Source of the DNA: a virus
Taxonomy: Duplodnaviria; Caudoviricetes
Length of the DNA stretch: 64,000 nt
IMG/VR virus record: IMGVR_UViG_3300032138_000647
Span: 32,001 to 96,000 of that record
Strand: one strand, 5' to 3'
The stretch's first letter is position 1. Each line of letters starts with the position of its first letter. The notes beneath the pieces are model-generated. The model was given only the letters and a program-made list of their open reading frames with translations. It was not told where the DNA came from and made no database searches. Of this stretch, positions 2,336-41,108 are shown piece by piece. Position numbers and translations under genes: made by a program.

Positions 2336-5300
2336 ATGTCTCTAGAATGTCTATGTGTTAGACATGGAAGCGGAAAGGCGCAAGCTTCTGGCGGCGTACT
2401 TAGGGCTAAGCTTAGCTGTGCTCCAGCCTGCGTTATCGCCAAGCCTACCGGTAGAGGGTCTATTAAGGCTCTCATGCGGCGAGAAAGAGGCGGTAGCGCC
2501 AAGCTCACGGCTACCGGCCACATAACTGGTGGCGAAGTTGTGGATGTCGCATTTGAGAACTCAACCGTTAGAGCCTTAAAGCCCCGCCTAGCAGTAGACT
2601 TTTATCTTGGAGGGGCATGGGAGGATAGGAGTGTAGGGGAGGGAGATGACGACAGTTGGATTCCGCCTCAATTTCATGGTCATGGACACACCCATTATGG
2701 TAAGAAGGTAAACCCTGTTGGGGTATTTAGCATAACTCCCGGACTAACTCAGGTTCATAATCCAAGCAAAAGATTTAAAGCTACGGGTAGTCTACGAGCT
2801 AAATACGCAGACAAGTTTGCTGGTAGCTTTAATGACTTTGGCTGCTTCCATAAGCTGTATCCCATAAAAGATATAGACGTATTATATGATGGCGGGTACT
2901 TTGTTAACGAGTCTAACAACAGCGGCAATCTCTATGACAGCGTGGACGAGGGTGTATTTACAGGCTCTTATCATACCCAGTCTGGTATTAGTTATCGCAT
3001 ATCTGACGATCTCAATACTTTTATTCAACCTTCTGCTGTCTATACTACCGGCAGATTCAGATATAAATGTGAAGTTACTAATCCAGCCGTAACCGCCAAG
3101 GATAGTAGATTTTATTTTAGAGCATCTGCTCCTAGGGAAAACTATTCCTCGAAGGTGCCACCAGTATATAAAGTCCAAAATATCAGGCTGGAAGATCCCT
3201 CTGGAAATCTCATTATTAAATATGAGAATATTAGTCTTAGGGGTGACGCAGATTATGATAGCTATCAGTATGTCAACTTTGGAACCTACGGAAGTAAGCC
3301 AGAAACAAACAATCTATTGCTCCATACTTGGCATGCCGACTATCCATTTATGGAAGAAGGTGCGGGGTACACCCTCAGCTTTGAGGTTGATGTCGAGTGC
3401 CTAGACGACCCGTTTGATCGAGGATTTGATCCGGGTTATGAAGACACCTGCGCTCTGTTGGACCCACAAGTTCCACACTCTGGAAATGATTACCTAGCCT
3501 TGGATGGCGCTCCGCTAGCCACTCAGACTCAGCGGCTATCATTCCTAAATCCCACTAATACGATTAGAATATCTGCCATTGAGATATGTAATAGTGGAGG
3601 GTTTGATACTCTGAGAGAGCAGTACATGCCTATTCACTTCGGCGTGCAGGAAACCGGCAGAAGAATGGAGAGGTGTATACTTCCATCATTAATTCCTACG
3701 TATGAGTTTGATGCTGGAGTATACCCCACGTCTAGCAGTGTGTGGTCAGACTCTATTACCGGACTTACGAACCAAAGCGGAGTGGGTGCTGGACATCTAA
3801 CATCACTCATTAGAAACCCATGTAAGAGTAGTGCAATTACTCTTAGTTCTGCTAATCAAGTCGCTGACTCAGGTAAGCTGCTCCTTGAGTTTAGACATCA
3901 GGCCCCCAAGACTGTTAGCGATTTTGCAGGAGGGGCCTTTGATGGCAGCTATCTTCTGAGAGAGTTCAGTGTATCCCATAGGTCAACATATACACCAGAT
4001 GATCATCCGTTTATTGTAGACTCCGTATATCTTAAGGTGTTAGCCAAAAAAGAAGTCGGAAGCAGGGACTATGCTTTAGATATTGTTGGGTGGAGTGACG
4101 ACAGGCTGCTCAATGTTACTTCGGCTGTGGGAGGATTTTTGCAAAATCCGTCTGGAAGCGAAAATAACTTCGCACCTATAAGTAGTGGCTTCAACCCCAC
4201 TAATGAGCTAGCCTTGGGCGGAGAGTCTTTATCTGATAAGAGCCAGTATTATGACGCTAGCGGAACCTGCAATGCTGGCGGCGATCACTACATCCTTTCT
4301 AATACCCCCATGGTCACAGGGACGAGTTTTGGCTGGTACGAAGTACCCCTTACTATATATGATGACTGTGTAACGCTTGGGAAATCTCCAGATTTTTCAC
4401 AAAGCTCCTTCTTTGAAAGGTTGTTCTTAGATATATTCCCGCTGCCTAGCGGGGCTTCTATAGCTGCGGCTGAATTGTGTGTTAAGTACAAGCCAGCTAA
4501 TGGTTTAAACCTAAATACTATTGGCTATGAGAGAATAAGCCGTATTGGAAAGACCAGAGAAGAAGGGAAGATCACTCCAATTGGCAGGCAGACCGCTGAT
4601 GATATCATAAATGCTGGTTCTGGCTTGTCATCTCTATCTGCTATATCAAATATACCACATGGCTTTACGACCCCAGACGACATTAAGTCTAACTACTCCA
4701 GAAGGTGGAGAGGCTTGGAAGGTATTGTTCAAGGCCCCTTCGATCCCGACATGTTTGGCTTTGGCTTTAAAAATCCAACACTAGACTTCCCGCTGCTTTC
4801 TGGTTTCTATGATTTTGATTATGATAACAACCTTATCATCAAGTCTAGACCGCTGGGTAGCGGGTTTGGTTCTGCCACGGGAACCATGACTACTAGCTAT
4901 AGCGAGCACCACTTTAAGAACCTTGGTTGGAGATTTAATAGTAGTGGACTGTTTAATCAGTCTTTGCCAGATCTGACTGGCCCGTATAGAACAACTGACT
5001 GGACTTCACTATCTAAGACTGGATTCAATTTTGAAAGTCATGAGCTACATGGGCAGATTGCTGACGCGTTTAATAATGTAGTTAGGCTATCAGGAGTTAA
5101 TTCTTATATTAACTTTGGTCATATAGATACAGTTAGCGGATTTTCTATCTACACACGATTTACACCGGATGCCAATGTTAGCGGTGTAGGATTTAACTTG
5201 TTTGAGTCTGGAGCACTTGTGTCCAAATGGGACGCCGGAAAGGATCTGGAGTTTGCTCTGGGTTATGAAAACGGATACCTATGTGGTTACGCAACAGACA

Positions 5301-8300
5301 AGGATGACAACCTTGTAAAGGTAAAGGACACAATTACCTATGACAAATATCAATACCCTCTTTCTGCGCTCTTAACATACAATGACAACAACTCTAGCGG
5401 ACTTAAGCTATACACAGATAATGAATTGCATTCTGGTGTGTTCAATACCCTAAGAGCTTCTTCAAGCGAGTTCTATAAAAAGACCGGCGACAGCAATATA
5501 GTTCTAGGATATTCACCCGGCTCAGGTGTCGGGATGAACATGTTTGTAAGCGAATTCGGTATTGGTACATATCACGAGTCAGGCTGTCATATTGTAGAAG
5601 CAGATCCCGATCTGACATTTAAAGAGATACTGGCAGAAAACTTCCTAGCTGGAAATAGAGTTAAATTCTGGGCCTCGGGTGAGCCTAGCAGTAACGATAG
5701 ATATAAGCTATGGAGTTATGTGGATGAAGATACCCTGAAGTGGGACTTGGGAGCATTTAAGGTTTGTGAGTTCAGTCCAGACTTTGACTTCTTTACTGAC
5801 AGGGAAGGTAGGGACTTAATCTCTATCAATATTAAGCATGACGGCTCTGGCTATTTGCAGAGAGTTGACATGCCAATGCCTGAGTCTATTAGTTATAGTG
5901 GTCTTGCCTATCATACCCAAATTGAAAACGACTTCTTAAGATTCAATCTATCAGATGCGTCAGATAACTTCTATACTGCCAACCACCCCAGAATTACTAA
6001 GAGTCTTCCTCAAGGCTATGCATTTGCAGACAGAGCCTTTGTCGTAGAGACAGTTCTTGAACATGAAACCCTGAATAGCATTGCGTGGCCAGACGGCAAG
6101 CTTGGTCCTAAGCTAATTGTTAGTTTGTACACAAAGAATCAGGAGCCAAGCTCTTTCTCCACAACCAATTATGGGCTAATCAATAGAGACATCCATTACC
6201 TCAAGCCGTCTGGTTGCTGGAGAAGAATTGATAGCACGTTTAATTACAACAGTTTCTTTGATGAGTCTGAAGAGTGGGCATTGTTCCCACCAACTAGGCG
6301 TCTGACGGAATTCAATAAGAAGTATTATTCGCAGGACGTGAATGATATGTTCTTGCAGTATGACTTGGTTTATCCTTCTGGTCCAGCATTTGAGTCCAGA
6401 GTAAATGTTCACAGTGCCCACGTAAGACTAGAAGACGCATTTATTGTTCCCACGGAAGTGTCGGGTAATGTAAATCTTACCACTAGTGGTGAGCAGAGAC
6501 CTAGGGAAACTCTTCCTCTGCACTCTATGACTATATGTCATCTGGACAACTTGTCTTCTGGACACAGATTCTGTTCGGGAATCTTGGAAGGTATTTATCC
6601 ATCTGGCCTTACCCTGTACACTCAGGGGCCAACTAGAATAGACTCGCTGTTTGATGGTTCTGGAATGACGCTCTTTACGTCTGGAGCTATTCACCTTCTA
6701 GGTAGCGGTTTCTTCAATCTACTTGCGTCAGGCGGAAGCCTTGGTTCTGCTGGATCATCTGGAACAGGCGGCGTCGGCGGAGAAGACTTCCTAGGAATGA
6801 ACCTTTATGTTTCTGGGCAATATGCACTATCTGCCAGAATGCCGCTGTTTGCATTTAATAACCAGATATCTTTCCGACACGGCTTTGGACCCTTCTATGT
6901 TTATGGTACTGAAAATGGAAACCATTCTGGAGTGAATGGACATTTCTATCCGCTATACACAAACAGGTCCGCAGCGGAATCTGATAGCAGCGATGGTTTG
7001 GCTCACGCGCATACGTTTACGGAATATCCGGGAATAACTTTCTATATGCCCCACAGTGACCAGAACCATGGCATTGATAAGGCCCCATCTTATCTAATAA
7101 ATTATGATGTCTTCCCGAAATATCCAGCACTTAATCTGAACACCCACGCCTCTACCCACACTGGACATTTCAGTCATATTCCGATCTATCTGCATCAGTA
7201 TGCAGAGTCTGTTAGAAGCGATGAAACTAGCAGTCTTAACATGTACACTAAAGCTTTGGGGGCCTTGGCGAGTCGGTATACTGACGGATTCTTCAACTTG
7301 TATACAGGTTCGCCAGCCACGCCATCTGCCAAGATGCCGCTGGTTATCTGGAACGATATAAGTCTTATTCCTAGCCTTGCAAGCGGCAGCTTCAATCTCC
7401 ATACCGCTACATTTGGAGCCGGTCTTGGGGCGGATTATATGACTTGGAATGAGTATAATTATGGACACGATATAACTATTGATGATAATAGCTTTGCCAC
7501 CCTAGAAGCAGATGATGAGATTCGAGGGGTGGACATGGTCTGCTACGGAGCTTGTGACGCTGACGGAAACGAAAAGTGCAATGATCCTCCAGTATTCACC
7601 CACGACGTTGTGTGGCGTCCCGAGTCGTGTGTAACCGGAGGTATCTTCAGACCCTTTGCTACCTATACTAACTTAGATACCAGAGGCTTTAATACCGATG
7701 TTGGGTATAGTGGTCACTTCTACGGAATGAGGAAGTATACAGACCTGAAACCCAACGCTCCATACGCTCTAACTTTGCGTGGATCTACTGGCACAACACG
7801 GAGCATTCCTCTACCAAGAGATTGGGAAGAGTGGGAATATGGATCAGTAGATGATGTAAAGTTCTCTGGCATTAAATTTATTGGTGACTATCCGTATCTT
7901 AGCGGACAAAAACCGATAACACCGCCTTCTGGCAGGATGGAAGGAGATAGGTACGGAAAGGCTATTTCTGTCACTGACGAACTGATGGTAGTTGGCGCAC
8001 CCCTGCATGAGTTTGATGAGCAAGGAGGAAATACATATTTCGACTCGGGAAACAGTCGGCTAGCTTGGGTTGGTGGCAGTGGGCTTACGGAAGCTGGTGC
8101 TGTTTATCTATACCGAAGAGGCCCTCAGCCCCAGTCTCCAAACATGCACCCAAGTGGACACAAAGCTTATTGGAATCTAGAGTCCAAGATTGTTTTGCCG
8201 TCTGCCTATAGAGGCGACTGGTTCCATTGGCTGCCGGGAACTATGTCGTTTGGCGGATTGCCCAAGCTTCCGGTTAGACAATGGGAGATAGGACAAGAGG

Positions 8301-11300
8301 GGAGAAGGCTTGGCCACTCCTTGGATGTCGCGTCTACAATCAAGACACCATCTCTCTATGAAACTAAAAGAGAGATCATAGTTGCTGGAGCACCACGAGG
8401 CTCGTGGTCAAGAGAGTTTGACGACGTTGTTACATCGCCAATTAAGGTGGCCGTCATGGTCTTTAGTGACGAATTTGTTTACAACGAAAGAAAAGCCTCA
8501 ATTATCAAAGCCAAGGTAGACGCCGTAAACATGCTCTACAGATACTACTCCTGTCCGCCAAGGGAGTTGGATTTGCAAGTTTTGGTATATGAACCAACTG
8601 GAGTGGGAGCACCCGGAGGGGGACTAATACAAGGTACACTAGACTGGATACACCACTCTAGAATACCTCGCAATACATATACTCATGGACAGGTGGACAA
8701 CACAGACGAAATAACCAGTGGGATCAAATCGCTATTTCACGAGGCTTTCCCTTATGACGTAACAAAGCCACACAATAACATTCCTCCGATTGTTGGCTTT
8801 TACATTGATGATAGTCGGTCACTTGGTAGAGAGGAGCTTACTCCCGCCATAGATCAATTTGTGGGTCATTACAATCAGTACAGTTTCTTAAGCGGCGTTC
8901 AAGACGTTTATGACGTTCAGGATAGCGGGCATATATATGAGTATATTCCCGCTGTCGATGCTGGAGAAGACTGGGTTAGGATGACCAACACTCTTACTGA
9001 CAGTCTGCTGGATAGCGGTAGGCTTATTAGAGATGATGGTCTTCGATTCATATGTAGTGAACTCGGTCTTGAATGTCAAAACCCAAACCTCAAGGAGTTT
9101 AACTTGCCACCAGCTAGTGGTGGTCGGGTATATATTTTCGAGAAAGAAAGCGGCGTATGGAATCTTATTCAAGAAATCAAGAGACCGGCCCTAGAGTTTT
9201 CAGAAAACGATCCAGATACCGATGCGGCGGCTGGTCTTGACGAAGGTGAAGGTGAATTCCTAAAGCCGGTACTTACCTTTGATGGCTTTGGACATGCCGT
9301 AGCAATTAGCAAAAACACGGAAGTTGTTTCTATTGGCTCTCCTTATGTGGAAGAAGCATGCTTGATTTATCAATACGATCCGGCAGAAAAGAATCGCTTA
9401 TACAGTCACGTTAAGTCTTGGTTAACATTCAAGAATGAAGACAAGCAGTACGATGACGTGCTAGCTAGATGGGAAGAATACGAAAGAACATTTGGAGACA
9501 TGGTTGCCTCTCAAATGATATATACTGAGCTTAGCCCTAGTGAAAAGTTTACTCTTAGGTCTGACCCTGAATATTGGCAAAATGATGTCAACGGATCAAT
9601 TCAGGAGTACAGAAAAATATTCCAGTATGGGTATTCAAACATCCACCATCGTGGCACTTGGCAGTTTATTCCTTCTAATTTTGCTCCTACCTCTAGATTG
9701 GGATGGAGCACGGCTGTTAGTGAGGACGGTGACACCGCCGTGTTTGGAGCACCAACCGACAGCTTCAACGAGTTTGACGACACCAACGTATACTATAAGT
9801 CCCATAACACTTGGTCGTCCTATGTAAACGCAGGCGCTGTTCGTGTGTTTGAGTCAAGAAAATATAATCCCCACTCTGGCGTAGTGGAATTCTATAAGTT
9901 TGGAAACTTGGATGAAAGCACTAGGCCGGTAAGCGCGAGAGCAGAAGACTATAACGACCTCCAGCATACTTTTGGAACAGAGAATATTCCGTTCCATAGA
10001 ACCAAGTTCACTGATGTGGAAATACCAAGAACTGCCGGGTTGGCATTTATCATTTCTCCAGAAATTGATGCGGCTAGTGACGAGGTTATAGAGAACATTA
10101 AGGATTGGCTTGCTCTTGGGGACAGAACTCTTGTTATTGCTGGAAATGATCCTGTCTGGGAGGGCAATGGAAAATACGAGACATCCAACAAGATTATCAA
10201 TAAGATTCTATCCAAGCTAGACTCTAGAATGAGACTACATCCTGCGCGGAACGAATATGAATCACTTCCGTCTTGTATGCCTTCCGGTAGGGCTAACGTT
10301 CTCCCATCCTTCTTCCCCGCAGGCGGTAGAAGTACAGAGGTTACCCCTCAAACTATGTTTGCGAAGGGTGTGGCAGATATTAGGATAGAGCTACCCACTT
10401 GGGGTACAGGATACTCTCCTTGTGATACCCTAAATACTAAGTGTGAACTTCCGTCTATGCATCAGGGAGATCTACGATTTCAGTGGGGAGCCGCTTGTAG
10501 AGTTGGTGGTAAATGTGACAAGATAAGAAGATACCCGGTCAACTGGCCATTCTTCTTTGGGACCATCCCGTGGCCATGCCCAACATGCGACCCCGACCCA
10601 CGCAAACCTCCTATTGGTCCCAATGAAGAACCTAAGCCGTTACTCGTTGCCGCAGAATACATACCGTCTATTACGATTACGTATCCAGCGTGGGACTCAA
10701 CACACACTGAGCCAATCATGTGTCGTCGCTGGATTGATAGGCCAGACATGGTTAGGTATGAGTATAACCCGGATTGCTTTGAGTCTGCTGAATTCACTTG
10801 GTCTGAAAATAGTGATGACTATACATCCGAAGACAGGGCTAGATATATTGACCCAGAAGAGTATGAAGGACGAGACGCCCTGATATATGCTAAGGGTAAA
10901 TCAAAAGATACCGATCCTCCGGTAAGGTCGTATGAAAACGTTTTGCCTGAGACTACACTGGTTAGTTCTGAGGCTTGGTCTGGCAATGCGACATCTAAGG
11001 TTGTTATGATTGCTGCTGTAACACCCGAAGGACATGCAGGCCCCGGAAGGTATAACCTCACCTATAAGGGGGACGACAACACGTCATTCTATCTCAATTT
11101 AACTACTAAGAAATGTGTAGGAAAAATACCAGAAGGCGGAGTAATTGCTCAGCTTGGTGGGTGGACAAAGCGTACAAGCTTCCAAGATGCGTTTATAGGT
11201 TCCCACCTTGGTGAGTGGGAAGGGAATGACTTCTATGGAAACAAGGGCGATGGCGGGCTTGGTCTGTTTAATACTAAGGGGTGGACATTAACAGAGAACT

Positions 11301-16668: not shown

Positions 16669-17066
16669 TGGCACAGAAAGAAACTTGGAGATATCAAAAC
16701 GTACCGCTGTTGTCGGGGCAGCGGGTTCTGTACTCTAGCGGCATGATTGTGCCGTCTGGTGAAAGCCACTTCTTTGATTTTCGTCAACAAGGAAAAGATA
16801 TATCTAGCTTGAAAAATGGGGAACCGGCACCCAGTGGTAGTGATGGTTTTCCTTCGGCTAACGTTCCACTATATAGAGGCTGCACGCATCGAGAGCATGG
16901 TTTGATATTACATTTTGGGGAGTCGGGAACCTTTTATACAGAAATGTCACATCTTAAAAAGCCAGTAAGTTCAGGCATTCAGGATTCTCTGTTAGCACCA
17001 GACAAACTAGTTACCCCGTTTAGTGAACAGGGTTCAAGGACTACTCAAGGGATACCGTTGGAATAG
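16668..17066 (+). CDS. Small Ser-Gly-rich hypothetical virion protein (132 aa)
   Basis: TAATG overlap with the upstream gene. Six SG dipeptides in 132 aa. Confidence 0.6.
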   Translation: MAQKETWRYQNVPLLSGQRVLYSSGMIVPSGESHFFDFRQQGKDISSLKNGEPAPSGSDGFPSANVPLYRGCTHREHGLILHFGESGTFYTEMSHLKKPVSSGIQDSLLAPDKLVTPFSEQGSRTTQGIPLE

Positions 17067-17078
17067 AAGGAATAATAC

Positions 17079-19118: not shown

Positions 19119-22100
19119 TGACACACGGAAAAGAACACGGATATCAAAATTACGCTATAGTGCCCGGCTCTGGGGTCAGTGAGCTTGATTGGCCTGCTAG
19201 CGGCGCTGTACCAGAATCCTATTCAGCAGGTGGTTGGACTTATGGTAATGAGGGGTTTGTGCAGCAAACCTTTCTCGGAGCTTCCATACGATCTTTCAAT
19301 GTCAATGGAGGCTTTGGTGATTCTAGCTCCTCTCTTAGTGTAGCATTGGTCAATGATGAATATAACGAATCGGACAAGACTGGAAAAGGCAAGGGCGACG
19401 ATGTCTATCATGACGGGAATGCTGATGATTTTTCACCGCCCCCCGTTGGTTCGCCTGCGTTTTTTAAGTTTGGGAAAAACCACGCTACAGTAGAGGACGC
19501 TTGGAGAAAAGTTTTTGATGATACATACTATTGGTATCCCGATTGGCCTGCTGCGGGCTGGGATACAGGAAAACTATACACTGGAAGCGTAAGGCAAACC
19601 ATACCACCCCTCAAAGAGTTTCCAGTAGATAAAGGGCCTAGCGGAGAAATACTTGAGATACCTGAACATAACTATTACTTTATGGGTTCTGATGATCCAA
19701 TAGACCTAGAAGCTCAAACCGGTAGCTTAACTACAACCGCAACAAACGAAAAAAATAGGTGGAGCGATCAACGTCTTAGGTTTGACCCTTCCTATATGGG
19801 CAGAGGAAAGGATCACTTTGCGTTTGGCGGGGTTATCCAAAGCTATACAGAAAATCGTGGAGGTGGAGGTAATCCCCTCTATGACGTAAAGATGGTTGAT
19901 CCTAGAGAGATACTTTCTAATGCTACGCTAATTCTAAATAACTATACTGGGACCACCTTTAACAATAAAAATCTATTCAATATTTATGGGTTCTTGGAAT
20001 ATGACCCAAGTGACGGTCTGAAAAACACCCTGCGCGCTGCTTATAATGTTAATGACTCAGAGCCAATTCCCGGTGTCAATCCCACCAATGGTCAACCCCC
20101 TATGCTTGCCAAGTATGTGCAGCCAAATGGTGGTATTTTATACTTTGGTGATGATATGTATAGGAATGTCCCCTCTATCCCCTTTAGCTTCTCTGTTGCT
20201 AAATTGCCAACAACGTTTCCAATCACAGGGCGTGGCTATTCAAGAAGAGGAGATAAGGGAATACCATACTACAGGGTAAGCCAAGCTATTACTGCGTTGT
20301 TTAATTATGACGGAGCATTGCCAGCAGAGTATGTGGCTAAAGGTTTTGGTGGCACTATTAATTTTAGAGGGTTTAATTATGTGGTTGACTTTGGTGGCAT
20401 TCCTCTTGATAAGATACCGAAGTTTTATTTTCTAGAGTTTGACCAGATTGACATGCTGGCTTTGGCTCAGGAGTTGTGTGATGTGATTAGCCACGATCTA
20501 TTCGTAAGCTTGCTTCCAGTCATAAATCATCCTGCCGTAGATTGGCTTTATGAATGGAATAAACATTGCATCTCTAGCAATAAGCCAGAACAAACAGTTC
20601 ATGGAATTATACGTGTAGATGCTATCAATAGATCAGATAAGCCAGACTACGGAAGTATAAAGAAATTCTTGGACAATCTTCATACGAAGGGTATTGAAGT
20701 AGAAAATAGGGATGTTGGTTTTGAGCTATCTAACGTCGTAACAGACAAGTTTATAGCTGGCGCTCAAGAAACAGAAATGTACTACTTCTCTAATAATAAA
20801 GATAGAGACTTTCTGGAGGTGCGTAAACACAAGGAGGGGGTAAGCAACGAATACGATAAGCTGCTGGGAGATCAGTGGTATCTTAGCACAGCTTTTGAAC
20901 AGCAAATACTTCCATTCTATGGGTTCCTTGGTAAGGATGCAGTTACTATACCTCGTGGGTTTGGTGCCTACAAGCAGATATTACTAGATTCCACATCGCT
21001 TAACGCGAAGGGTGTCGGTAATTATTATATAGCCACGGAGCTTGAGCTTAGGCATGCTGACATCTCATTTGAACAGTGGAGAAACTTTTTGCTGACCTAT
21101 AATGACGTATACATGGAGTCAATGGAAGCAAACGATGCGGTAGAAAAGACCCTACTGAATAGCATCCCTGCATCATCAGGGATACCCGCAGGTAAAAAGC
21201 TGAATCCCAATATATCTAATAACCACGGCGTGTCATCACCCCGCTGCGTGTTCAGGTCCGACAGAAACTATATGGGCGTAGATGGTCTGCCTGCCAGTCC
21301 TTGCAATCCACCATATGGATACCCACTGTATTTTAAGCGGGCTGAAAAAATCGGTATTCCCGAAGCGGGTCTAGCCAAAATAACCGCAGCAAAGACTCAG
21401 ATACAAATGAATCTAGCAAAGCTAAAGTTGCCGAAATCACAAGAAACGTTTACGGAACTTCGCGGTGCACAAATGGGCGAATACAAGGATAAGATTTTTA
21501 AGAATGTACATCAGTTCTTTAGCGATGGTACTGCTCTTTTTGAGGCCGCAAAGCCTCTTGGTCGCGCATTGATGGGCGTTTCTTTGCTGGGAAGTTGGCT
21601 GAAAAATGAAAAAAATGAGTCAATGCTTACGGCTGCTAGCGGAGCCATTGGGGATTGGTTTGATGACGCTATTGCAAATAGAGCCAACCGTGAATATGCC
21701 ACTCAGGTGGGTATGATTAAAACCTTTCTGGAAAAAAACGAAGACTTGCTCAAGCAAACGCAGAGACTACAGGAAGAGGGTATGGAGAATGCGCTTAAGG
21801 TATACAATTTTGTAAAGGAAATTGCTAGTAAGCATCTTGGTAAAACCTATCTTGTTAAACTTCCACAAAGGTGCAATTTATCATATGCCAAGAATATAGT
21901 CATGAATACAACGGGTGCATCACAGGGTGTACAGTTTCACCCAGATAATGCCAACGCCGCAGACGATGCGGCCCTAGGCGTCATGTCTGTTGGTGACCGT
22001 CAGGAAGCTGTTAAAGGGGCTGTTAGGATGGCCACGGCTAGATCAGAGAGGTTATCGGAGCCTGCTTATGGACCTTTTGGGTTCATGCCTAGGCCGATAT

Positions 22101-24556
22101 CTGCTGCACCTAGATATGCATTTGGGTCAGTGTTTGGTGGTGTATTCCAGCAGCAAATGCTTCAGAATCGAATGCAATACGAAGGGCTGCCGATATCTAA
22201 TGGGCTTACTGTGCTTAATCAAAGTGACAAGTCTGTAAATCAAACTTTGGGTATGCATGGAAACGCTAATCCTTTAGGAGCTTACACCTATGGAGCCTTG
22301 AAGTGTCACTACAATCCAATGGTAGATGCATATCAATACAATTACGAACCGGACAGTCAAGGGGGATTCTTCCCGTTTGATCTTTTTGAGAATATGCTTA
22401 CACCTTCAGACATGGGCAGCATACCCAATCAGTCCAAAATGCCACTAGGCACTAGGCAGGTTCTTTGTCCGAAAGATCTTACTAACTTTATTACAGACGG
22501 TGGGCGGATTGGGGCTTACATAAGATACGATAACAGTCAGTTTTTAAGCTTTAATGGAATTAGTAAGGAAGAGCTTACTCAGCAAACAGTTGATGCTAAT
22601 GGGTATATGATTCCAGATCTGTGTGAAGAGATGGATAACATGAAGCAGGATGAGTTCCACAGCTTCAATAGTAAGGAAAAGCTACAGTCTTTACCAAAAG
22701 CCGTCGCCTTTGTGAAGTGCGATATAGACAGCAAGCTTTATATGCCCCCCAAGTCAGTGGGAGTTGACCCCCTTAAAACAACAGCTTTGACTAAGCTGGG
22801 GAAAATGAGGACGGCTACAGGAACATCACACCATCCATCTCCTGTTTTTCAGGACGCTGTTTTTGGTAGAAACGTAGTAGATATTGGTCAGATTGCAGAA
22901 CCTAGGCGGCTGTGGAATGCTTCTGGGTGCTTCTGGGAAAATAGCTATGCATATTACGAGTCTCATTATGTTCCTGATCCAGAAACCGGTGGCGATGACG
23001 GAACACTGGTGCAGCAGGAAGATTTTTACAGAGAATACAACGCCGTGCTAGATGGTGATATTATACGAACAGATATTGCTGGTCTGGATTCAGATCATGT
23101 CTACGCCCTGATAACCGTTCCGGGCAAGGTTGTTCCCACCCATGATTCTCGACAGAAGGATGGCCCTTATTTTAGATACCAGCCTGCCCTACTCCATCAC
23201 TTGCTTACCATGGATACGGTGAAGGGTGTGATTGGATTTGAGAAGCCTAGCATGAGGGGGAAGCCTACCAATTTCCTAGTAGAGCAGTGTGCAAATGTCC
23301 AAATAGACACAATTGTCAACGCCCTTAACGCGCAGAAGAAAGCACTCGAAGAGATGACACTTGCAAACCCGGAGGCTCAGCTTTCGGCAGCATCACCGTC
23401 TCCGGTGTATCCAGACCTAGTTGTCCTCCCGCTAATGTCTACAGAAAGATGCTATGGACCATGGGTTTCTTCGCATATCGACGCGCAGGCGGCAAACCAC
23501 AAAGACATAGGAGGAAAAATAGAATACATCAAGGATGAAAACTTAGCTCCTTGGAACTTTGCGGGATACCAACTAATGAATGAGGCTGGAAAGCTTCAGG
23601 CGGTATTCTCCAATAGCCTTCTACTGTTTTCTGAAAGGGGGGGATTTGTTTATCCCGGAGCGCCGGAGGGAAATAGTCTAGCAAAATCTCTATCTGACGG
23701 AGGCCCGCTGGTAACAAGTATTTCAGTTGATGTCGGTGCGGGGGGAATAAAAACCACCTACAAAATGGATTTATACACGGCCAACTTTGGAAAAATAGCC
23801 AAACAAAAGGAGCAGCTTATTGCTAAGGTGGCCAGAGAAAGGCAAAAGCTGAGGGACGAAAGAAACTCTCTAATTAGAAAGGGGATTGGGAAGGGGCAAA
23901 GTTCTCAAAACCTTGGTCTTGTGAACAAGATGTTTGCCGGTGTGGAGGCCATGAAGTCGCAAACTGATAACTTGATGACCACTCTAGACAAGGGTGCTAC
24001 TTATAGTGACATGATTATTGGAAGCGTGGTATCCGCAGAACACAAGGGGCATGACGATGCCGGTGAGGGAAACACAACCAGAGAAGTTGGCTTCGAGGTT
24101 AGTTCACAACCAAATAAGATACTGAAACAAGCTATGGGAATTACACCATCCGAGGATATGGCTAGGAAGCAGGACTTAAATACGTTTGGTGGAAGCTGGA
24201 GCAATCTGTTGGCAGGAACTTCAAAAGATGTATACCATCCAGATGCTCCCTATTTTCAAGCCATTAATCCTACGGCCAATAGAGAGAGGTATTATCTGGA
24301 TGATGATGGTCTTCCAGCGCAAAACATAGATGGGATTACAGAGGCTAGCAGTGGCGGTAGCAGCGGTGCAGGTGGGAGCGGTGGAGGCGCAGGTGGCGGA
24401 ACAGGTGGTGGCACTGGCGGAGGAACCGGCGATGGTACTGGTGGTGGTCTCAACGACCCCGGCGGTGGCGCAGGAACAGGTGACGGTACTGGCGGTGGTA
24501 CTGACGGAGGAACCGGTGGTGGTACTGGTGGTGGAGATGGATATGAACCTTACTAA
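19118..24556 (+). CDS. Large tail/baseplate hub-like protein (about 1812 aa) with a Gly-rich C-terminal tail
   Basis: Start reassigned to ATG 19118 (TAATG overlap). Hub-like beta motifs at the N-terminus (FLGASIRSFNVNGGFG, YDVKMVDPREIL) and near the C-terminus (LVTSISVDVGAGGIKTTYKM). Confidence 0.55.
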   Translation: MTHGKEHGYQNYAIVPGSGVSELDWPASGAVPESYSAGGWTYGNEGFVQQTFLGASIRSFNVNGGFGDSSSSLSVALVNDEYNESDKTGKGKGDDVYHDGNADDFSPPPVGSPAFFKFGKNHATVEDAWRKVFDDTYYWYPDWPAAGWDTGKLYTGSVRQTIPPLKEFPVDKGPSGEILEIPEHNYYFMGSDDPIDLEAQTGSLTTTATNEKNRWSDQRLRFDPSYMGRGKDHFAFGGVIQSYTENRGGGGNPLYDVKMVDPREILSNATLILNNYTGTTFNNKNLFNIYGFLEYDPSDGLKNTLRAAYNVNDSEPIPGVNPTNGQPPMLAKYVQPNGGILYFGDDMYRNVPSIPFSFSVAKLPTTFPITGRGYSRRGDKGIPYYRVSQAITALFNYDGALPAEYVAKGFGGTINFRGFNYVVDFGGIPLDKIPKFYFLEFDQIDMLALAQELCDVISHDLFVSLLPVINHPAVDWLYEWNKHCISSNKPEQTVHGIIRVDAINRSDKPDYGSIKKFLDNLHTKGIEVENRDVGFELSNVVTDKFIAGAQETEMYYFSNNKDRDFLEVRKHKEGVSNEYDKLLGDQWYLSTAFEQQILPFYGFLGKDAVTIPRGFGAYKQILLDSTSLNAKGVGNYYIATELELRHADISFEQWRNFLLTYNDVYMESMEANDAVEKTLLNSIPASSGIPAGKKLNPNISNNHGVSSPRCVFRSDRNYMGVDGLPASPCNPPYGYPLYFKRAEKIGIPEAGLAKITAAKTQIQMNLAKLKLPKSQETFTELRGAQMGEYKDKIFKNVHQFFSDGTALFEAAKPLGRALMGVSLLGSWLKNEKNESMLTAASGAIGDWFDDAIANRANREYATQVGMIKTFLEKNEDLLKQTQRLQEEGMENALKVYNFVKEIASKHLGKTYLVKLPQRCNLSYAKNIVMNTTGASQGVQFHPDNANAADDAALGVMSVGDRQEAVKGAVRMATARSERLSEPAYGPFGFMPRPISAAPRYAFGSVFGGVFQQQMLQNRMQYEGLPISNGLTVLNQSDKSVNQTLGMHGNANPLGAYTYGALKCHYNPMVDAYQYNYEPDSQGGFFPFDLFENMLTPSDMGSIPNQSKMPLGTRQVLCPKDLTNFITDGGRIGAYIRYDNSQFLSFNGISKEELTQQTVDANGYMIPDLCEEMDNMKQDEFHSFNSKEKLQSLPKAVAFVKCDIDSKLYMPPKSVGVDPLKTTALTKLGKMRTATGTSHHPSPVFQDAVFGRNVVDIGQIAEPRRLWNASGCFWENSYAYYESHYVPDPETGGDDGTLVQQEDFYREYNAVLDGDIIRTDIAGLDSDHVYALITVPGKVVPTHDSRQKDGPYFRYQPALLHHLLTMDTVKGVIGFEKPSMRGKPTNFLVEQCANVQIDTIVNALNAQKKALEEMTLANPEAQLSAASPSPVYPDLVVLPLMSTERCYGPWVSSHIDAQAANHKDIGGKIEYIKDENLAPWNFAGYQLMNEAGKLQAVFSNSLLLFSERGGFVYPGAPEGNSLAKSLSDGGPLVTSISVDVGAGGIKTTYKMDLYTANFGKIAKQKEQLIAKVARERQKLRDERNSLIRKGIGKGQSSQNLGLVNKMFAGVEAMKSQTDNLMTTLDKGATYSDMIIGSVVSAEHKGHDDAGEGNTTREVGFEVSSQPNKILKQAMGITPSEDMARKQDLNTFGGSWSNLLAGTSKDVYHPDAPYFQAINPTANRERYYLDDDGLPAQNIDGITEASSGGSSGAGGSGGGAGGGTGGGTGGGTGDGTGGGLNDPGGGAGTGDGTGGGTDGGTGGGTGGGDGYEPY
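24344..24545 (+). repeat. Low-complexity tandem GGG(T/A)/GDGT-encoding repeats at the C-terminus of the 1.8-kaa protein
   Basis: Translation SSGGSSGAGGSGGGAGGGTGGGTGGGTGDGTGGG...GGGTDGGTGGGTGGGDG, with imperfect 12-bp units such as ggtggtggcact and ggcggaggaacc. Confidence 0.9.
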
Positions 24557-24579
24557 CATAGGAAACTAGGAGAATTGTA

Positions 24580-27500
24580 ATGGCTAAGTTTAAAGGCATG
24601 ATGGGGCAAACCCACGAGGCGCTCCATGTAATCACGACTAAAGATCCATACTTTAGGTCAATAGGATTGGTGAACTTTACCAGTGGCCAGTTGTGGGAGG
24701 CTCTTAAAAACAATGTCGCATTAAATACAGACCCTAACGGAGCACCAACTGGCCGCAGTCAGCAGGCAGTCTGGAATCAGATCATGACTTCGGAAGATGC
24801 CAACTTTATGCACATGGATGACGCTTCCAAGGAGACCACTAGGCTTGAACTGACTAGCTATCTACCTTTGGCAAACTCTGGACCATTTGCTGTTGATGAT
24901 CTTATAGGGCTAAACAGAGACTGGGCTAGCGGGTTATACCAAACAGATACTCATCCTGAAGAGTGCAAGCTATTGAAGCACGTAAAAACCGGCAGAGGTG
25001 GCTATGTGCAATGGTCTGGTGGACCGCCAACTGCGGGAGGTGCCGCAGCGTCGGGTTCTTCGGCTAGCGGACAATTAACTGCTGGCCTATATATAGACTT
25101 TACTCCAGATGTAACCGCTACCCCATCCGGCTGGGCCAGCGGAGTTCCCCACTTCCCATCTGGCCAAAGCGGTATTATTCGTGCTGGACAAAATAAATGC
25201 GTCAAGGGGTTTCACCCTACGTTTCAGGTAAGGTTATTTGATGGAAGTAGGGCGCGTAATAGTGATCGATCCATGGTTGGAAATGGCCCGCCAACTTTCG
25301 TAGCTATGCCAAAAACAAACTTCGGCAAGCCCTATAACTGGAGGGGGACTGATAACGACGGGACGCCACCCGGACAGTTTGCAGATCTAGAAGAAGGCGG
25401 AGATTCAAACCCTAGCAACATGGTTGGCGGAGAGCTAGATGTTGCCTATAATAGGAATACGGGGAAGTTTGAAGCGGGAACTATACAGTGCATAGCAAGG
25501 CTGTTAGATGATATTGCTGCCGCTCCACTGCTACAGTTTCCAGAGGGAAATGTAGACCTTTTAACGCAAGACTGCTTCATGCCTAGCAGCGATCAATATA
25601 CCGGCTTCTTCGCTACTGGCAGGGCTACCCCAATGAGCGTTCATCATGGTAATCCTTATACGTTTGGTCCCACTTGGAAGGGAAAGAAGTGTAAAAAAGA
25701 TGAGAAGGAAATATTGATAGCTGTTAATAGAGCACAAAGAGACTATAAGGCTGGCGAAACCGTCATGCTTAATAAGATTGACGGCGAGTGGATTATCCTC
25801 CCCATGGGAGAGATTGATGTTGTGACACCCGGAATGTTTGGTATACAGCAATGGTCATTCAGTAGTTTTATAGCCAACTCTAATGGGTATTTTAGAGACA
25901 ACAGGTATGAAGAAAAGTTGTGGACAAAGGCTGGGGCATGGGGGCACTGGGGAGGGACGATAGTAAATGAAGACGTGCATTTTATGATTCCCGGTGGTTC
26001 CAACTCGCAGTCAGGTGGTTCTGTTAACTTGACTGCACAAGAGATGAAAGTTATTAAGACAGCCGACTATGAGGATGGGTTCAGGCGAGAGTTTTTCTAC
26101 TCTATGTTTTATGATGATGGTTCTATGATCTTTGCTACGCCGGGGTTTGCGATGTTTCCCAGTCGTAAGGCAAAGGATGCAGCACTTAACCTAGGGTACA
26201 ACGTGAATGGTCTTCTTACTGCTATCGCCAAAGGGAAGGCTGGTCTACCCGTTGCTTCGGGAGCATATATCCGCACTAACATGGTGGGTGCACTAAATGG
26301 ATATCACCAAACATCAAACTTCGATATGGTTAGTAAAGCGTTTGGCGGAGTAAACACAAGAACGATACTTGGTCAGCAAAACCATGATATGAAGTGTGGC
26401 GGACAAGAACAAGAGAAAGACGATGACGGAACAATTCCGGGGTGGCAAATGTATCCTTTCTGGGGGCCTATGTTCAAAGACGGATACAGAACTGTTCAAC
26501 TCGACAGCATTAGGAATAAGACAGTAGATATTGTACCTTGCGGACCCACAAACGCCTACTTCTTTAACGCCAACTTGCCATCGTTGGGCGCAGGAGATGG
26601 CAAGTCTATCATAAACATGGATACCGATGCCAATATGATGGGTGGGCCTTTTTCTTGGGTTGAATCTGACGCTAGTGGCGTTCCACTCACCCGAAAGCTT
26701 ACTACTAGCAACGAGGGACTTCAGTTGCCAGCAGATATAGCTTTAAATGCTTCACCTAGCGGGCTAAACGGTAGGCCGATGGAAGATCTTCTATACATTC
26801 AAGCGTGGTCTAACGTAGATACCAGAAGGAAAGACCTGTTTGAGAGGATGAAGTATATGTTTAAGAGAGTAGATCGGTTCGGTAACGTTATTACTGGCAG
26901 CGGATCGCAGGCAAGGTTTACATGGTTGGCAGACCCAAGTGGGTTTGATAGTGTTAACAATCACGATAATCCTTCGACATCGACATATGACCTCAGACCC
27001 CTTTCGCCAGAAAAGATTTCTTTTTATCCAGCCACTGTAGAGTGGGTTGCTTCTACCGACCCACACACTTTCTTCGGTCCTAGGTCTGATGAGCAACTGT
27101 ACGGTGGGCAGAAAAGGTTTCCGTGGGTTCCAGTCTCTTATCAACAACATTGGCAGAACGCAAGGAAGAATTGGCTTGGTGGCGGAGGGGCTGGGGAGGA
27201 GTTTAAGCTGAATGGATATACATCACCTTTACCCGGATTCACATTCCTTAACACCCCCGATGTAGGCATGGGAAATCTGTATGATATAATTCCGCAAAGG
27301 TTCTTTCAGAGAAACCAGAGGGCAAGGCTTCACGGCAATAAGCTATTGGCTCAAGACAGTACTGGTAAAAAGCTTTACCCCCTCAAGGGGCTAGCATGGC
27401 AAGGCGGTCACAGCATAGATGTCCTACCGTGGGATTATCGAGTTATGGGCAAGTCTCCTAATAAATATTACCCCGGTACAATGGATTATTACAAGGACAA

Positions 27501-29097
27501 CGCCAATGTAGTCAGCATTGTTGCCTCAAAGGTTCGGATACGAGCAAGGGCTAGTGAGCTTGTATTTATGACAGAGCAGTTTTTGGGGGTCAATGTACAT
27601 GCCACGGTTTCTGCTGGAGGAACGGTTGTTGGAACATTCATAGGGTTCTTGTTTGGTGGTCTAAGCGCAACCGGACCCGGACCACAGACTAATAGTCACC
27701 CACAGTGGGGCTATGTGCCAGATAATGTGGAAAGCTTTGGAACTACAGCTTTACACGGAAGGCTGTTCGATCAGTGGCCAGACGAACAAACTGTATACGA
27801 CCCAAGATACTTTGCCGTTCACCACTTTAATCCGGGAACAGCAGATGAGGTTATAAAAAGCTGGGCCATGACAAGTAGAACGGTATTCTGGGAGCCTGAC
27901 CCGGCAACGAATGGTAGCGGCAATTTGGCACCCGACGATTCGATTAACGTAAGATTTCGACATACGGATGGAAGTCTCGACACCACAAGCTTCGCGGTTC
28001 GTTCAAAACCGAAGGGAAAATGGATGCTGGGAGCACCCTATCCGCACTTTGAAGATGCTGTTATACACGGAGTTGACCACAGGGAGCCTACTTGGGGGCC
28101 GCTGCAAACTGGACCAAACGGAGGCTTTTCCATGGGGAGAGACGGACTGTATGGAATTCCCGGAGAGCACGTATTTGGCGTTCAGTGGGATGGTGGTAAT
28201 GGTATTTACTCTATGAGGCCAACTGGGGATTGGAACATATCTAATACCAGACGCGGAATGCTCCTGTCAAACGGCGGGTTTAAGCATCACAGGCGAACTA
28301 TAGGCGCTGGCGACTTAGAGTATATTGATGTGTCTAGTGGAGATCCTCTAACTACGCCACAAGAGGGCGGAGCTTGGGGGGCTGACCCCCACGATGGGAT
28401 TGATGCAGGATATGATTTTCAAGTAAACGATTTCCTAGAGTTTTATGGAGGCTCAGGAAAGGGCGCTAGACTTCAGGTCACAGCGGTAGAAAGAAACCGC
28501 AGAACAGGCAAAGGTAACAGTTCTAAGGGTGCCATTAAGTATGATGGTGGACAGCTTGCCTTAAAATATGTTCTTGCGGCAGGGGATATAGAGGAGAGAG
28601 GTGCAGACTATAAGGGAGAAGATTTCCCAGCGGTCAAAGGGAATCTCGTTCCCGAGAAGGGGGCTTCATATACAGTAAAGCTGCTACCCACAGATACTCA
28701 AAGTAATGGAAAATTTAGCGGTGGAAGAGAGCCTAGATTACGAGCAGGAAAGATAATAGAAAAGGTCTATACGGATCTTGGGCCATCAGAAAGGGGAAAT
28801 TTGGCGCAATTGTCGCTAGGAAGCAACAACGGAAACGGAAACACAATGGGGTGGAGCGGTCAACCTAACGGAAGAACAAAGGGAACTAGGCAGATATCAT
28901 ACAACATAGCTAGTGAGGGAGATCAAAAGTCTATATTTGACCAAGGAAATCAAGGAACTGTCAAGCACAAGACGCCTGTTGGATCATATGATGCATTCCT
29001 GTATTTTCATAGCGATGTAGGACATATAAGCAACCACGGGGGAGGACTCATGAATGCTCAACAAAACTATATTAACCTTCAAATAACCACACAATAA
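24580..29097 (+). CDS. Large virion structural protein (1505 aa)
   Basis: AGGAG RBS. Gly-rich. The C-terminal GYDFQVNDFLEFYGGSGKGARLQVTAV...RGADY unit resembles repeats of phage baseplate/tail proteins. Confidence 0.6.
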   Translation: MAKFKGMMGQTHEALHVITTKDPYFRSIGLVNFTSGQLWEALKNNVALNTDPNGAPTGRSQQAVWNQIMTSEDANFMHMDDASKETTRLELTSYLPLANSGPFAVDDLIGLNRDWASGLYQTDTHPEECKLLKHVKTGRGGYVQWSGGPPTAGGAAASGSSASGQLTAGLYIDFTPDVTATPSGWASGVPHFPSGQSGIIRAGQNKCVKGFHPTFQVRLFDGSRARNSDRSMVGNGPPTFVAMPKTNFGKPYNWRGTDNDGTPPGQFADLEEGGDSNPSNMVGGELDVAYNRNTGKFEAGTIQCIARLLDDIAAAPLLQFPEGNVDLLTQDCFMPSSDQYTGFFATGRATPMSVHHGNPYTFGPTWKGKKCKKDEKEILIAVNRAQRDYKAGETVMLNKIDGEWIILPMGEIDVVTPGMFGIQQWSFSSFIANSNGYFRDNRYEEKLWTKAGAWGHWGGTIVNEDVHFMIPGGSNSQSGGSVNLTAQEMKVIKTADYEDGFRREFFYSMFYDDGSMIFATPGFAMFPSRKAKDAALNLGYNVNGLLTAIAKGKAGLPVASGAYIRTNMVGALNGYHQTSNFDMVSKAFGGVNTRTILGQQNHDMKCGGQEQEKDDDGTIPGWQMYPFWGPMFKDGYRTVQLDSIRNKTVDIVPCGPTNAYFFNANLPSLGAGDGKSIINMDTDANMMGGPFSWVESDASGVPLTRKLTTSNEGLQLPADIALNASPSGLNGRPMEDLLYIQAWSNVDTRRKDLFERMKYMFKRVDRFGNVITGSGSQARFTWLADPSGFDSVNNHDNPSTSTYDLRPLSPEKISFYPATVEWVASTDPHTFFGPRSDEQLYGGQKRFPWVPVSYQQHWQNARKNWLGGGGAGEEFKLNGYTSPLPGFTFLNTPDVGMGNLYDIIPQRFFQRNQRARLHGNKLLAQDSTGKKLYPLKGLAWQGGHSIDVLPWDYRVMGKSPNKYYPGTMDYYKDNANVVSIVASKVRIRARASELVFMTEQFLGVNVHATVSAGGTVVGTFIGFLFGGLSATGPGPQTNSHPQWGYVPDNVESFGTTALHGRLFDQWPDEQTVYDPRYFAVHHFNPGTADEVIKSWAMTSRTVFWEPDPATNGSGNLAPDDSINVRFRHTDGSLDTTSFAVRSKPKGKWMLGAPYPHFEDAVIHGVDHREPTWGPLQTGPNGGFSMGRDGLYGIPGEHVFGVQWDGGNGIYSMRPTGDWNISNTRRGMLLSNGGFKHHRRTIGAGDLEYIDVSSGDPLTTPQEGGAWGADPHDGIDAGYDFQVNDFLEFYGGSGKGARLQVTAVERNRRTGKGNSSKGAIKYDGGQLALKYVLAAGDIEERGADYKGEDFPAVKGNLVPEKGASYTVKLLPTDTQSNGKFSGGREPRLRAGKIIEKVYTDLGPSERGNLAQLSLGSNNGNGNTMGWSGQPNGRTKGTRQISYNIASEGDQKSIFDQGNQGTVKHKTPVGSYDAFLYFHSDVGHISNHGGGLMNAQQNYINLQITTQ

Positions 29098-33200: not shown

Positions 33201-33204
33201 TGTT

Positions 33205-36353: not shown

Positions 36354-36371
36354 GCTGTTGTCCTCTATATC

Positions 36372-38086: not shown

Positions 38087-38089
38087 GGG

Positions 38090-38677: not shown

Positions 38678-38678
38678 G

Positions 38679-41103: not shown

Positions 41104-41108
41104 TATTG

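What the first reader, a model, noticed from the sequence alone, without database searches (positions are those of the whole stretch)
2336..29097. Ser-Gly dipeptide enrichment in outer virion proteins, a putative glycosylation sequon
My approximate hand count in the 4162-aa protein is about 88 SG versus about 36 GS, so the bias is order-specific and not only compositional. The last ~125 aa contain nine SG (TSGI, SSGN, ASGV, HSGL, VSGI, DSGL, TSGI, PSGY, DSGV). The 132-aa protein has six, and ASG/PSG recur in the 679-, 1812- and 1505-aa proteins. The tape measure fragment, which sits inside the tail lumen, has only about three in 767 aa. Ser-Gly is the known attachment motif for eukaryotic glycosaminoglycans. 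Inference: SG is the acceptor site for the adjacent glycan island, giving a densely glycosylated tail.
Basis: partly seen in the sequence, partly recalled or inferred. Interest (0 to 1): 0.85.

Follow-up and report, generated by a model that had tools for sequence, protein, structure and literature searches.

The report
Ser-Gly excess in phage tail proteins
A giant tail protein of an uncultured marine phage, and a few of its neighbours, carry about 2.6 times more Ser-Gly pairs than chance predicts; these pairs sit at fixed, conserved loop positions and look like this lineage's preferred way of building turns, and nothing in the sequence shows that they carry sugars.

Summary
The 4162-aa protein has 88 SG against 36 GS, with 33.8 expected (z about 10). 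The excess is not general to outer virion proteins. It is strong in the 4162-aa protein (O/E 2.6) and present in the 132-aa (3.3) and 1505-aa (1.7) proteins. It is absent from the 614-aa (0.96), 1816-aa (0.68), tape-measure-like and capsid proteins, and from the minus-strand enzymes (0.98).

All 120 homologues of the giant protein show it (median 2.4). The excess comes from fixed columns: private SG sites occur at chance level. In the models, SG lies in loops of a LamG-like jelly roll and FG-GAP blades. Substitutes for the Ser are T, N and D. The pooled [S/N/D]-Gly share of glycines (30-35%) matches lambda and T7 tail proteins (28-34%), so Ser has taken over the usual Asn/Asp-Gly turn niche.

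Lambda tail proteins, from a phage with no glycan island, also show SG O/E 1.7. Every near-complete relative keeps the glycosyltransferases, so the co-variation test says nothing. No known protein O-glycosyltransferase family was detected.

Best reading: a structural turn motif (about 0.55). A glycosylation sequon stays possible (about 0.2) and untested. The scan has already noted this pattern in at least 64 related genomes.

The parts
2..2323 (+). C-terminal 773 aa of a 2634-aa tape-measure-like protein, which is not SG-enriched
   Evidence: SG 3 against 5.4 expected. The whole protein has 20 against 19.1, and 61 orthologues give O/E 1.13. The tape-measure call rests on synteny: the gene in this position in distant relative L080 hits PF10145 PhageMin_Tail. 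Pfam and PHROGs found nothing for this protein here.
2336..14824 (+). Giant 4162-aa tail protein directly after the tape measure; it is the main carrier of the SG excess
   Evidence: SG 88, GS 36, 33.8 expected. The only Pfam hit is FG-GAP_2. 277 homologues were found, and the 120 examined have SG O/E 1.64-2.96. There are 45 conserved SG column pairs.
4973..6460 (+). aa 880-1375: LamG/ConA-like jelly roll plus a following beta domain, with 13 SG
   Evidence: AF2 on 51 sequences, pLDDT 77. Foldseek matches neurexin LNS, laminin G and pentraxin. All 13 SG lie in coil, several of them immediately before a strand or in hairpin turns.
6461..7435 (+). aa 1376-1700: short-repeat stalk with (L/M/F)-N-L-x-x-x-G units, dense in SG
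   Evidence: 13 SG in residues 1251-1500. The family consensus shows repeated SG...LNL units. Sequence shown.
13013..14455 (+). aa 3560-4040: FG-GAP (integrin-alpha-like) blades with 14 SG
   Evidence: AF2 on 42 sequences. Foldseek matches integrin alpha head-pieces. SG lies in coil or hairpin turns, for example the 2-residue turn at 3636.
14456..14821 (+). aa 4041-4162: C-terminal tail with nine SG, ending in the family-wide LNLRIRGK
   Evidence: Nine SG confirmed. pLDDT is below 50, so no confident fold. The conserved end motif is seen in about 60 relatives. These SG are moderately conserved (0.4-0.9).
14824..16668 (+). 614-aa virion protein, not enriched
   Evidence: SG 4 against 4.1 expected. 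70 orthologues give O/E 1.30.
16668..17066 (+). 132-aa protein, SG-enriched but poorly conserved
   Evidence: SG 6 against 1.8 expected, shuffle p = 0.006. Only one orthologue was found in the 74 relatives' flanks.
17079..19118 (+). 679-aa protein with weak, non-significant SG excess
   Evidence: SG 7 against 4.1 expected.
19106..24556 (+).
   Evidence: SG 9 against 13.3 expected. 64 orthologues give O/E 0.79.
24580..29097 (+). 1505-aa protein with moderate SG excess
   Evidence: SG 21 against 12.5 expected, shuffle p = 0.012.
31220..58035 (-). Glycan island of sugar-nucleotide enzymes and glycosyltransferases, which is the proposed donor system
   Evidence: Pfam hits: GNAT, GlmS-like SIS/GATase, DAHP_synth_1 (KdsA-like), CTP_transf_3, UDP-GlcNAc 2-epimerase, SDR dehydratase, FkbM methyltransferase, GT1 x3, GT2, and weak GT8 and RgpF. 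SG O/E in these proteins is about 1.

Best explanation
Ser-Gly is a conserved turn or loop-closing dipeptide in the beta-rich domains of the giant post-tape-measure tail protein. These domains are a LamG-like jelly roll, FG-GAP blades and a short NL-repeat stalk. A few fibre-like neighbours carry the same feature.

The Gly supplies the backbone conformation. The preceding small polar residue caps the turn, and a beta-strand (V/I/Y) often follows. Other phage tail proteins spread this role over Ser, Asn and Asp. This lineage uses Ser almost exclusively, which produces a large order-specific SG excess while NG and DG are depleted.

Shown here: the excess, its position-specific conservation, its loop location and the substitution pattern. 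Inferred: the turn-capping role. Why Ser is preferred over Asn and Asp is not explained.
For: - The excess comes from fixed columns. Per sequence, SG gives 13.8 private, 27.8 intermediate and 38.8 conserved sites. The composition-matched control GS gives 14.8, 13.2 and 6.6.
- Gly is at least as conserved as the Ser (0.65 against 0.57). 41 of about 155 conserved Gly columns are preceded by a conserved Ser.
- Substitutes at the Ser of conserved SG are T 19%, N 16%, D 12% and A 7%. At other conserved Ser they are A 26%, T 26%, N 9% and D 4%. Side-chain H-bond acceptors are kept and Ala is avoided.
- In the two AF2 models, 25 of 27 SG have the Ser in coil, none lie in helices and 2 lie fully in strands. 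Several sit in hairpin turns or directly before a strand.
- V (2.5x), I and Y (1.6x) follow SG, and P (2.4x) and A (1.9x) precede it.
- [S/N/D]-Gly accounts for 30-35% of glycines in the giant protein and its family. The figures are 28% for lambda tail proteins, 34% for T7 and 24% for T4. Only the split among S, N and D differs.
- Lambda tail proteins, from a phage without a glycan island, have SG O/E 1.72 with GS 0.98.
Against: - Ser before Gly is far more conserved than Ser elsewhere (0.57 against 0.34). Asn before Gly and Asp before Gly show no such gain. A generic turn position would not predict this, so Ser may have a specific role.
- Other large virion proteins of the same phage lack the bias (the 1816-aa protein has O/E 0.68). 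It is therefore not a genome-wide turn style.
- T4 baseplate and fibre proteins show no SG bias (1.03), so O/E 2.4-2.6 is unusual.
- No atomic coordinates were available, so Ser side-chain hydrogen bonding and exposure were not measured.
- The C-terminal SG-rich tail has no confident model.
Confidence: 0.55

Rival explanations
1. SG (often P/A-S-G-V/I/Y) is the acceptor motif of a phage-encoded cytoplasmic O-glycosyltransferase from the adjacent island. The giant tail protein and some fibre proteins would then be glycosylated at dozens of loop serines.
For: - The bias is confined to some virion proteins and is absent from enzymes and the tape measure.
- Ser before Gly is conserved at the level of aromatic residues, while N-G, D-G and T-G show no such gain.
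- The sites lie in loops.
- The GT1 genes are kept in 10 of 10 near-complete relatives and in 4 of the 5 most distant relatives searched, as is the SG excess.
- Hyperglycosylation of loop serines in beta-rich adhesins has a precedent in TibC/TibA (PMC4358343). Virion glycosylation in phages is cited as a precedent in PMC12619734, which refers to Freeman et al. 2023.
Against: - No GT9/BAHT, Maf/MptE or other known protein O-GT family was found. The GT1 proteins match only generic GT-B enzymes.
- Private SG sites are at chance level, so there is no sign of selection for new sites.
- N and D, which cannot accept an O-glycan, are common substitutes.
- The 1816-aa, 614-aa and capsid proteins are not enriched.
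- Lambda tail proteins show SG O/E 1.72 without any glycosyltransferase.
- The island could instead serve host-surface or polysaccharide synthesis.
- Co-occurrence is uninformative, because both traits are fixed in the lineage.
Confidence: 0.2
2. The turn role is as in the best explanation, and the preference for Ser is selection for chemical durability. Asn-Gly deamidates and Asp-Gly isomerises readily (established protein chemistry, from my own knowledge). Long-lived marine virions would therefore replace them with Ser-Gly.
For: - NG O/E is 0.60 in the structural block against 0.95 in enzymes. It is 0.74 in 120 homologues and 0.40 in tape-measure orthologues.
- DG is 0.86-0.88 against 1.05.
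- NG is the most depleted N-X pair and NS is next at 0.88-0.90.
- Lambda, T7 and T4 tail proteins have NG and DG at or above 1.
Against: - The depletion is modest.
- NG depletion also occurs in the tape-measure protein, which has no SG gain, so the two trends are not tightly coupled.
- Only three control phages were examined, all coliphages.
- The idea does not explain why the 1816-aa protein lacks the SG bias.
Confidence: 0.15
3. The excess is an artefact of composition, tandem repeats or shared descent, with no functional meaning.
For: An upstream 1831-aa protein (outside the window) owes much of its SG count to an 11-aa tandem repeat, SGSGALNSQFV. Family-wide counts are not independent, because the sites are inherited.
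Against: - Shuffles that keep composition never reach the observed count.
- GS, with the same composition, is at 1.0.
- In the giant protein the sites are dispersed over 4000 residues in varied contexts.
- Codons are mixed.
- Conservation of the SG Ser exceeds that of other Ser at about 45% overall identity. This indicates purifying selection.
Confidence: 0.05

Closest known systems
[S/N/D]-Gly beta-turns (type I turn with G1 bulge, 2-residue hairpin turns), and conserved S-G turns in beta-propeller repeats such as WD40 (textbook structural knowledge, from memory)
   Same: Gly at the turn is preceded by a small polar capping residue. The location is in loops at strand edges, the dipeptide is asymmetric (XG, not GX), and S, N, D and T substitute for one another. 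The pooled [S/N/D]G share equals that of lambda and T7 tail proteins.
   Different: Ser is used almost exclusively while NG and DG are depleted. The Ser is conserved as strongly as aromatic residues. O/E of 2.4-2.6 exceeds the three control phages.
Bacterial autotransporter heptosyltransferases (TibC/AAH acting on TibA and AIDA-I; PMC4358343)
   Same: Both concern a cytoplasmic enzyme hyperglycosylating many serines in loops of a beta-rich surface protein.
   Different: No GT9-type enzyme is present in this record. The carrier folds are a jelly roll and propeller blades, not an autotransporter beta-helix. No modification has been shown.
Virion glycosylation of mycobacteriophages (Freeman et al. 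2023, as cited in PMC12619734)
   Same: Phage-encoded glycosyltransferases lie in a genome whose virion proteins are the proposed targets.
   Different: In that system the glycans sit at the C-termini of capsid and tail-tube subunits. Here the capsid protein has no SG excess (2 against 2.1), and the candidate sites are dispersed loop serines in a tail-tip giant protein.
Eukaryotic glycosaminoglycan attachment at Ser-Gly (xylosyltransferase); the acidic-cluster CS sequon is described in the abstract of PMC13405426
   Same: The Ser-Gly dipeptide, strictly Ser rather than Thr (TG O/E 0.89).
   Different: Acidic flanks are required there. Here D and E are depleted after SG (0.53 and 0.56) and V/I/Y are enriched. 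No xylosyltransferase-type family appeared in the Pfam scans of the island.

Membership tests
[S/N/D]-Gly structural turn motif | Located in loops or turns at strand boundaries, not inside helices or strands | tested here: met
   In 25 of 27 SG in the modelled regions the Ser is in coil; none lie in helices and 2 lie fully in strands. Across all dipeptide positions, 25% are in strand and 9% in helix.
[S/N/D]-Gly structural turn motif | Gly conserved, and the preceding residue exchangeable with other side-chain H-bond acceptors (N, D, T) but not Ala | tested here: met
   Gly 0.65 and Ser 0.57 conserved. Substitutes are T 19%, N 16%, D 12% and A 7%, against A 26% at other conserved Ser.
[S/N/D]-Gly structural turn motif | Position-specific inheritance rather than turnover of sites | tested here: met
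   Conserved SG sites number 38.8 per sequence against 6.6 for GS. Private sites number 13.8 against 14.8.
[S/N/D]-Gly structural turn motif | Ser side chain hydrogen-bonded to the backbone within the turn | not testable with these tools
   The model coordinates are not returned. Only DSSP strings and pLDDT are available.
BAHT-type (TibC/AAH) hyperglycosylation | GT9-family heptosyltransferase encoded with the substrate | tested here: not met
   PF01075 gives no match in the 121.8-kb record, which is 73% complete.
BAHT-type (TibC/AAH) hyperglycosylation | Sugar adducts on the serines | not testable with these tools
   This needs mass spectrometry.
Maf-type nonulosonic-acid or Kdo O-glycosylation (flagellin-like) | Maf (MptE-like, PF01973) transferase | tested here: not met
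   No match in the record. KdsA-like and CMP-sugar synthetase-like genes are present.
Eukaryote-type GAG attachment sequon | Acidic residues flanking Ser-Gly | tested here: not met
   D is 0.53x and E 0.56x at the residue after SG. D is 0.73x before it.
Mycobacteriophage-type virion glycosylation | Acceptor sites on capsid and tail-tube C-termini | tested here: not met
   The capsid candidate (335 aa, weak PHROG and phage G MCP match) has SG 2 against 2.1 expected. The excess lies in tail-tip and fibre proteins.

The most novel reading that the evidence does not exclude
P/A-Ser-Gly-V/I/Y in exposed turns is the acceptor sequon of a new, Ser-specific, phage-encoded cytoplasmic O-glycosylation system. 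The system would decorate the giant tail-tip protein and selected fibres of a widespread lineage of uncultured marine phages (about 150-175 kb) at about 40 conserved sites. Its sugars would come from the phage's own roughly 30-gene glycan island.
Probability: 0.2. Interest if true: 0.8.

Novelty: new variant of a known kind. Interest (0 to 1): 0.35.

Why it matters
If the bias is structural, it is a clear case of a lineage-wide dialect in how beta-rich virion proteins build turns: Ser-only, with Asn-Gly and Asp-Gly avoided. That is useful as a signature for recognising this phage family's tail proteins, and it may hint at selection for chemically durable virions.

If the serines are glycosylated, this would be the first sequon-defined virion O-glycosylation system in an abundant marine phage group. 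It would also give a function to a conserved island of about 30 genes. Sequence data cannot separate the two readings, so the value lies in defining exactly which sites and domains to test.

Tried and rejected
- Megablast and tblastn of the region and of the giant protein against 50,697 cultured-phage records found nothing. Only the capsid protein weakly matches Bacillus phage G.
- Pfam and PHROGs gave almost nothing for the structural proteins.
- The co-variation test of SG excess against glycosyltransferase content is uninformative, because GT1 genes are present in essentially all relatives. The whole record of the most distant relative (L080) is not held.
- A profile search of 1.84 billion representatives found only members of the same family, so there is no outgroup.
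- PDB sequence searches of three island proteins gave only generic GT-B hits or none.
- A DNA-motif explanation was rejected because the Ser codons are a mix of TCN and AGY.
- A tandem-repeat-only explanation was rejected for the giant protein, where the sites are dispersed, but it applies in part to the upstream 1831-aa protein.
- My first binning suggested that the excess persists in variable regions. The site-level test showed that private sites are at chance, so the excess is inherited.
- A blind fetch of a phage G region held no large structural genes and was not used.


Full report
**Context.** The window is bases 32001-96000 of a single 121.8-kb IMG/VR virus record, rated 73% complete. 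The plus-strand block holds virion genes:
- a weak HK97-type capsid candidate and a Gp80-like head-fibre protein upstream of the window;
- a 2634-aa tape-measure-like protein, whose counterpart in a distant relative hits PF10145;
- the 4162-aa protein, followed by the 614-, 132-, 679-, 1816- and 1505-aa proteins and a C92 amidase.

The minus strand holds a real glycan island. It encodes a GlmS-like protein, a GNAT, a KdsA-like protein, a CMP-sugar synthetase, UDP-GlcNAc 2-epimerase, an SDR dehydratase, methyltransferases, three GT1 and one GT2. Next come SSB, a split DnaE and DUF1501 genes. No cultured relative exists in the phage collection.

**Observation.** The hand counts are exact. The 4162-aa protein has 88 SG and 36 GS against 33.8 expected. 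SG is the top-ranked of all 400 dipeptides, and no shuffle reaches the observed count (z = 10.2). The nine C-terminal SG are present.

The bias is not a general property of outer virion proteins:

| Protein | SG O/E | Source |
|---|---|---|
| 4162-aa | 2.6 | |
| 132-aa | 3.3 | |
| 1505-aa | 1.7 | |
| 679-aa | 1.7 (not significant) | |
| 614-aa | 0.96 | |
| 1816-aa | 0.68 | |
| tape-measure-like (whole) | 1.05 | |
| capsid candidate | about 1 | |
| minus-strand enzymes | 0.98 | |

Outside the window, the 1831-aa (2.25), 322-aa and 170-aa proteins are also enriched. The 1831-aa protein owes much of its excess to an 11-residue tandem repeat, SGSGALNSQFV. Ser codons in SG are mixed TCN and AGY, so selection acts on the protein.

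**Family-wide behaviour.** The giant protein has 277 homologues in marine metagenomes, on contigs up to 180 kb.
- All 120 homologues examined have SG O/E between 1.64 and 2.96 (median 2.4), with GS at 1.05.
- 65 IMG/VR copies give the same result, as do the most distant members.
- A profile search of 1.84 billion representatives found only this family.
- Among X-Gly pairs only SG is enriched. NG is 0.74, DG 0.86, TG 0.89 and PG 0.50.
- Across 60-70 relatives the orthologue groups keep their character. The tape-measure group is at 1.13, the 614-aa group at 1.30 and the 1816-aa group at 0.79.

**Where the excess comes from.** In a 30-sequence alignment (about 46% identity), 35 of the query's 88 SG are SG in at least 70% of homologues, and there are 45 conserved SG column pairs. 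I classified every SG by how many other sequences share it, using GS as a composition-matched control:

| Sites per sequence | SG | GS |
|---|---|---|
| Private | 13.8 | 14.8 |
| Intermediate | 27.8 | 13.2 |
| Conserved | 38.8 | 6.6 |

The excess is therefore inherited at fixed sites, and there is no surplus of newly arisen SG. Ser before Gly is conserved 0.57 against 0.34 for other Ser. Asn, Asp and Thr before Gly gain nothing. Substitutes at the conserved Ser are T 19%, N 16%, D 12% and A 7%. At other conserved Ser the figures are A 26%, T 26%, N 9% and D 4%. SG is preceded by P or A and followed by V, I or Y. Acidic residues are depleted after it.

**Structure.**
- AF2 on aa 880-1375 (51 sequences, pLDDT 77) gives a LamG/ConA-like jelly roll plus a second beta domain.
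- AF2 on aa 3560-4162 (42 sequences, pLDDT 65) gives integrin-alpha-like FG-GAP blades. The last ~110 residues, which hold the nine SG, are not modelled.
- In 25 of the 27 SG in modelled parts the Ser is in coil. None lie in helices. Several close hairpins or immediately precede a strand.

This location fits a turn motif. It equally fits exposed acceptor sites, so the test does not discriminate.

**Controls.**

| Protein set | SG O/E | GS O/E | [S/N/D]-Gly as % of Gly |
|---|---|---|---|
| T4 baseplate and fibres (8023 aa) | 1.03 | 1.07 | 24 |
| T7 tail proteins | 1.57 | 1.34 | 34 |
| Lambda tail proteins | 1.72 (P = 0.002) | 0.98 | 28 |
| Giant protein / its family | 2.61 / 2.41 | 1.07 / 1.05 (median) | 30 / 35 |

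Lambda has no glycan island, so a moderate order-specific SG bias can exist without glycosylation. The 2.4-2.6 seen here is still higher than in any control. The informative comparison is the pooled [S/N/D]-Gly share, which is the same here as in lambda and T7. What differs is that Ser fills nearly the whole niche (22-24% of Gly), while NG and DG are depleted. In other words, Ser has taken over the usual polar-residue-then-Gly turn position.

**Link to the glycan island.** GT1 genes are present in 23 of 24 long relatives (10 of 10 near-complete) and in 4 of 5 of the most distant ones. Both traits are fixed in the lineage, so the proposed co-variation test has no power. No GT9/BAHT, Maf/MptE or KpsC/S family is detectable. 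The GT1 proteins resemble only generic GT-B enzymes.

**Verdict.** The best explanation (about 0.55) is a conserved structural turn dipeptide with a lineage-specific preference for Ser. Avoidance of labile Asn-Gly and Asp-Gly may have driven that preference, with weak support. The glycosylation-sequon reading (about 0.2) is compatible with the unusually strict Ser conservation and the loop location. It has no enzyme-level or chemical support. It is weakened by the N/D substitutes, the un-enriched virion proteins, the lack of site turnover and the lambda control.

The scan has already recorded this pattern in at least 64 related genomes, with similar conclusions. This report adds the private-versus-conserved site test against GS and the pooled [S/N/D]-Gly comparison with phages that lack glycan genes.

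Noticed in passing
L002:770-6265 (genome 14769-20264, upstream of the window): A 1831-aa protein has SG 63 against 28 expected. Much of this comes from an 11-residue tandem repeat, SGSGALNSQFV, with about 20 copies in three blocks. It has no Pfam family.
   Followed up: partly
window 14798-14821: The giant protein ends in L-N-L-R-I-R-G-K. The same ending (LNLR[IV]RG[KYF]) closes the homologue in most of the ~68 relatives listed. It resembles the internal (L/M)-N-L-x-x-x-G repeat unit.
   Followed up: partly
whole plus-strand block; window 2-29097: Asn-Gly is depleted in virion proteins. O/E is 0.60 against 0.95 in enzymes, 0.40 in 61 tape-measure orthologues and 0.74 in the giant-protein family. 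It is at or above 1 in the T4 baseplate/fibre, T7 and lambda tail protein sets (0.66 in the T4 head/neck set). This may reflect avoidance of deamidation-prone sites.
   Followed up: partly
window 58421-63013 (-): DnaE is split into two genes. One carries PHP plus the NTPase domain (563 aa) and the other the finger plus HhH (532 aa). A 219-aa ORF without a family and a 225-aa RNase_T-type exonuclease lie between them.
   Followed up: no
window 63326-64000 (-): A DUF1501 gene sits inside a phage replication module (E = 3e-67). The family is typical of Planctomycetota-like bacteria, so it could be a host clue.
   Followed up: no
window 29927-30556 (+): A 209-aa Peptidase_C92 (YaeF/YiiX permuted papain-like amidase) closes the structural block. 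It may be a lysis or cell-wall enzyme.
   Followed up: no
homologue P0121 of window 2336-14824: A homologue from the cluster of P0002 (which is 61% identical to the giant protein) is deposited as a 'SAR202 cluster bacterium' MAG protein (MQF98274.1), on a 130-kb contig. It is either a mis-binned phage or a host hint.
   Followed up: no
window 13013-14821 and family members P0045, P0067, P0086, P0101: Some homologues of 4800-5400 aa carry extra RCC1, Calx-beta, cadherin-like or LamG_3 domains. The giant protein is therefore a modular scaffold that gains adhesin-type domains.
   Followed up: no
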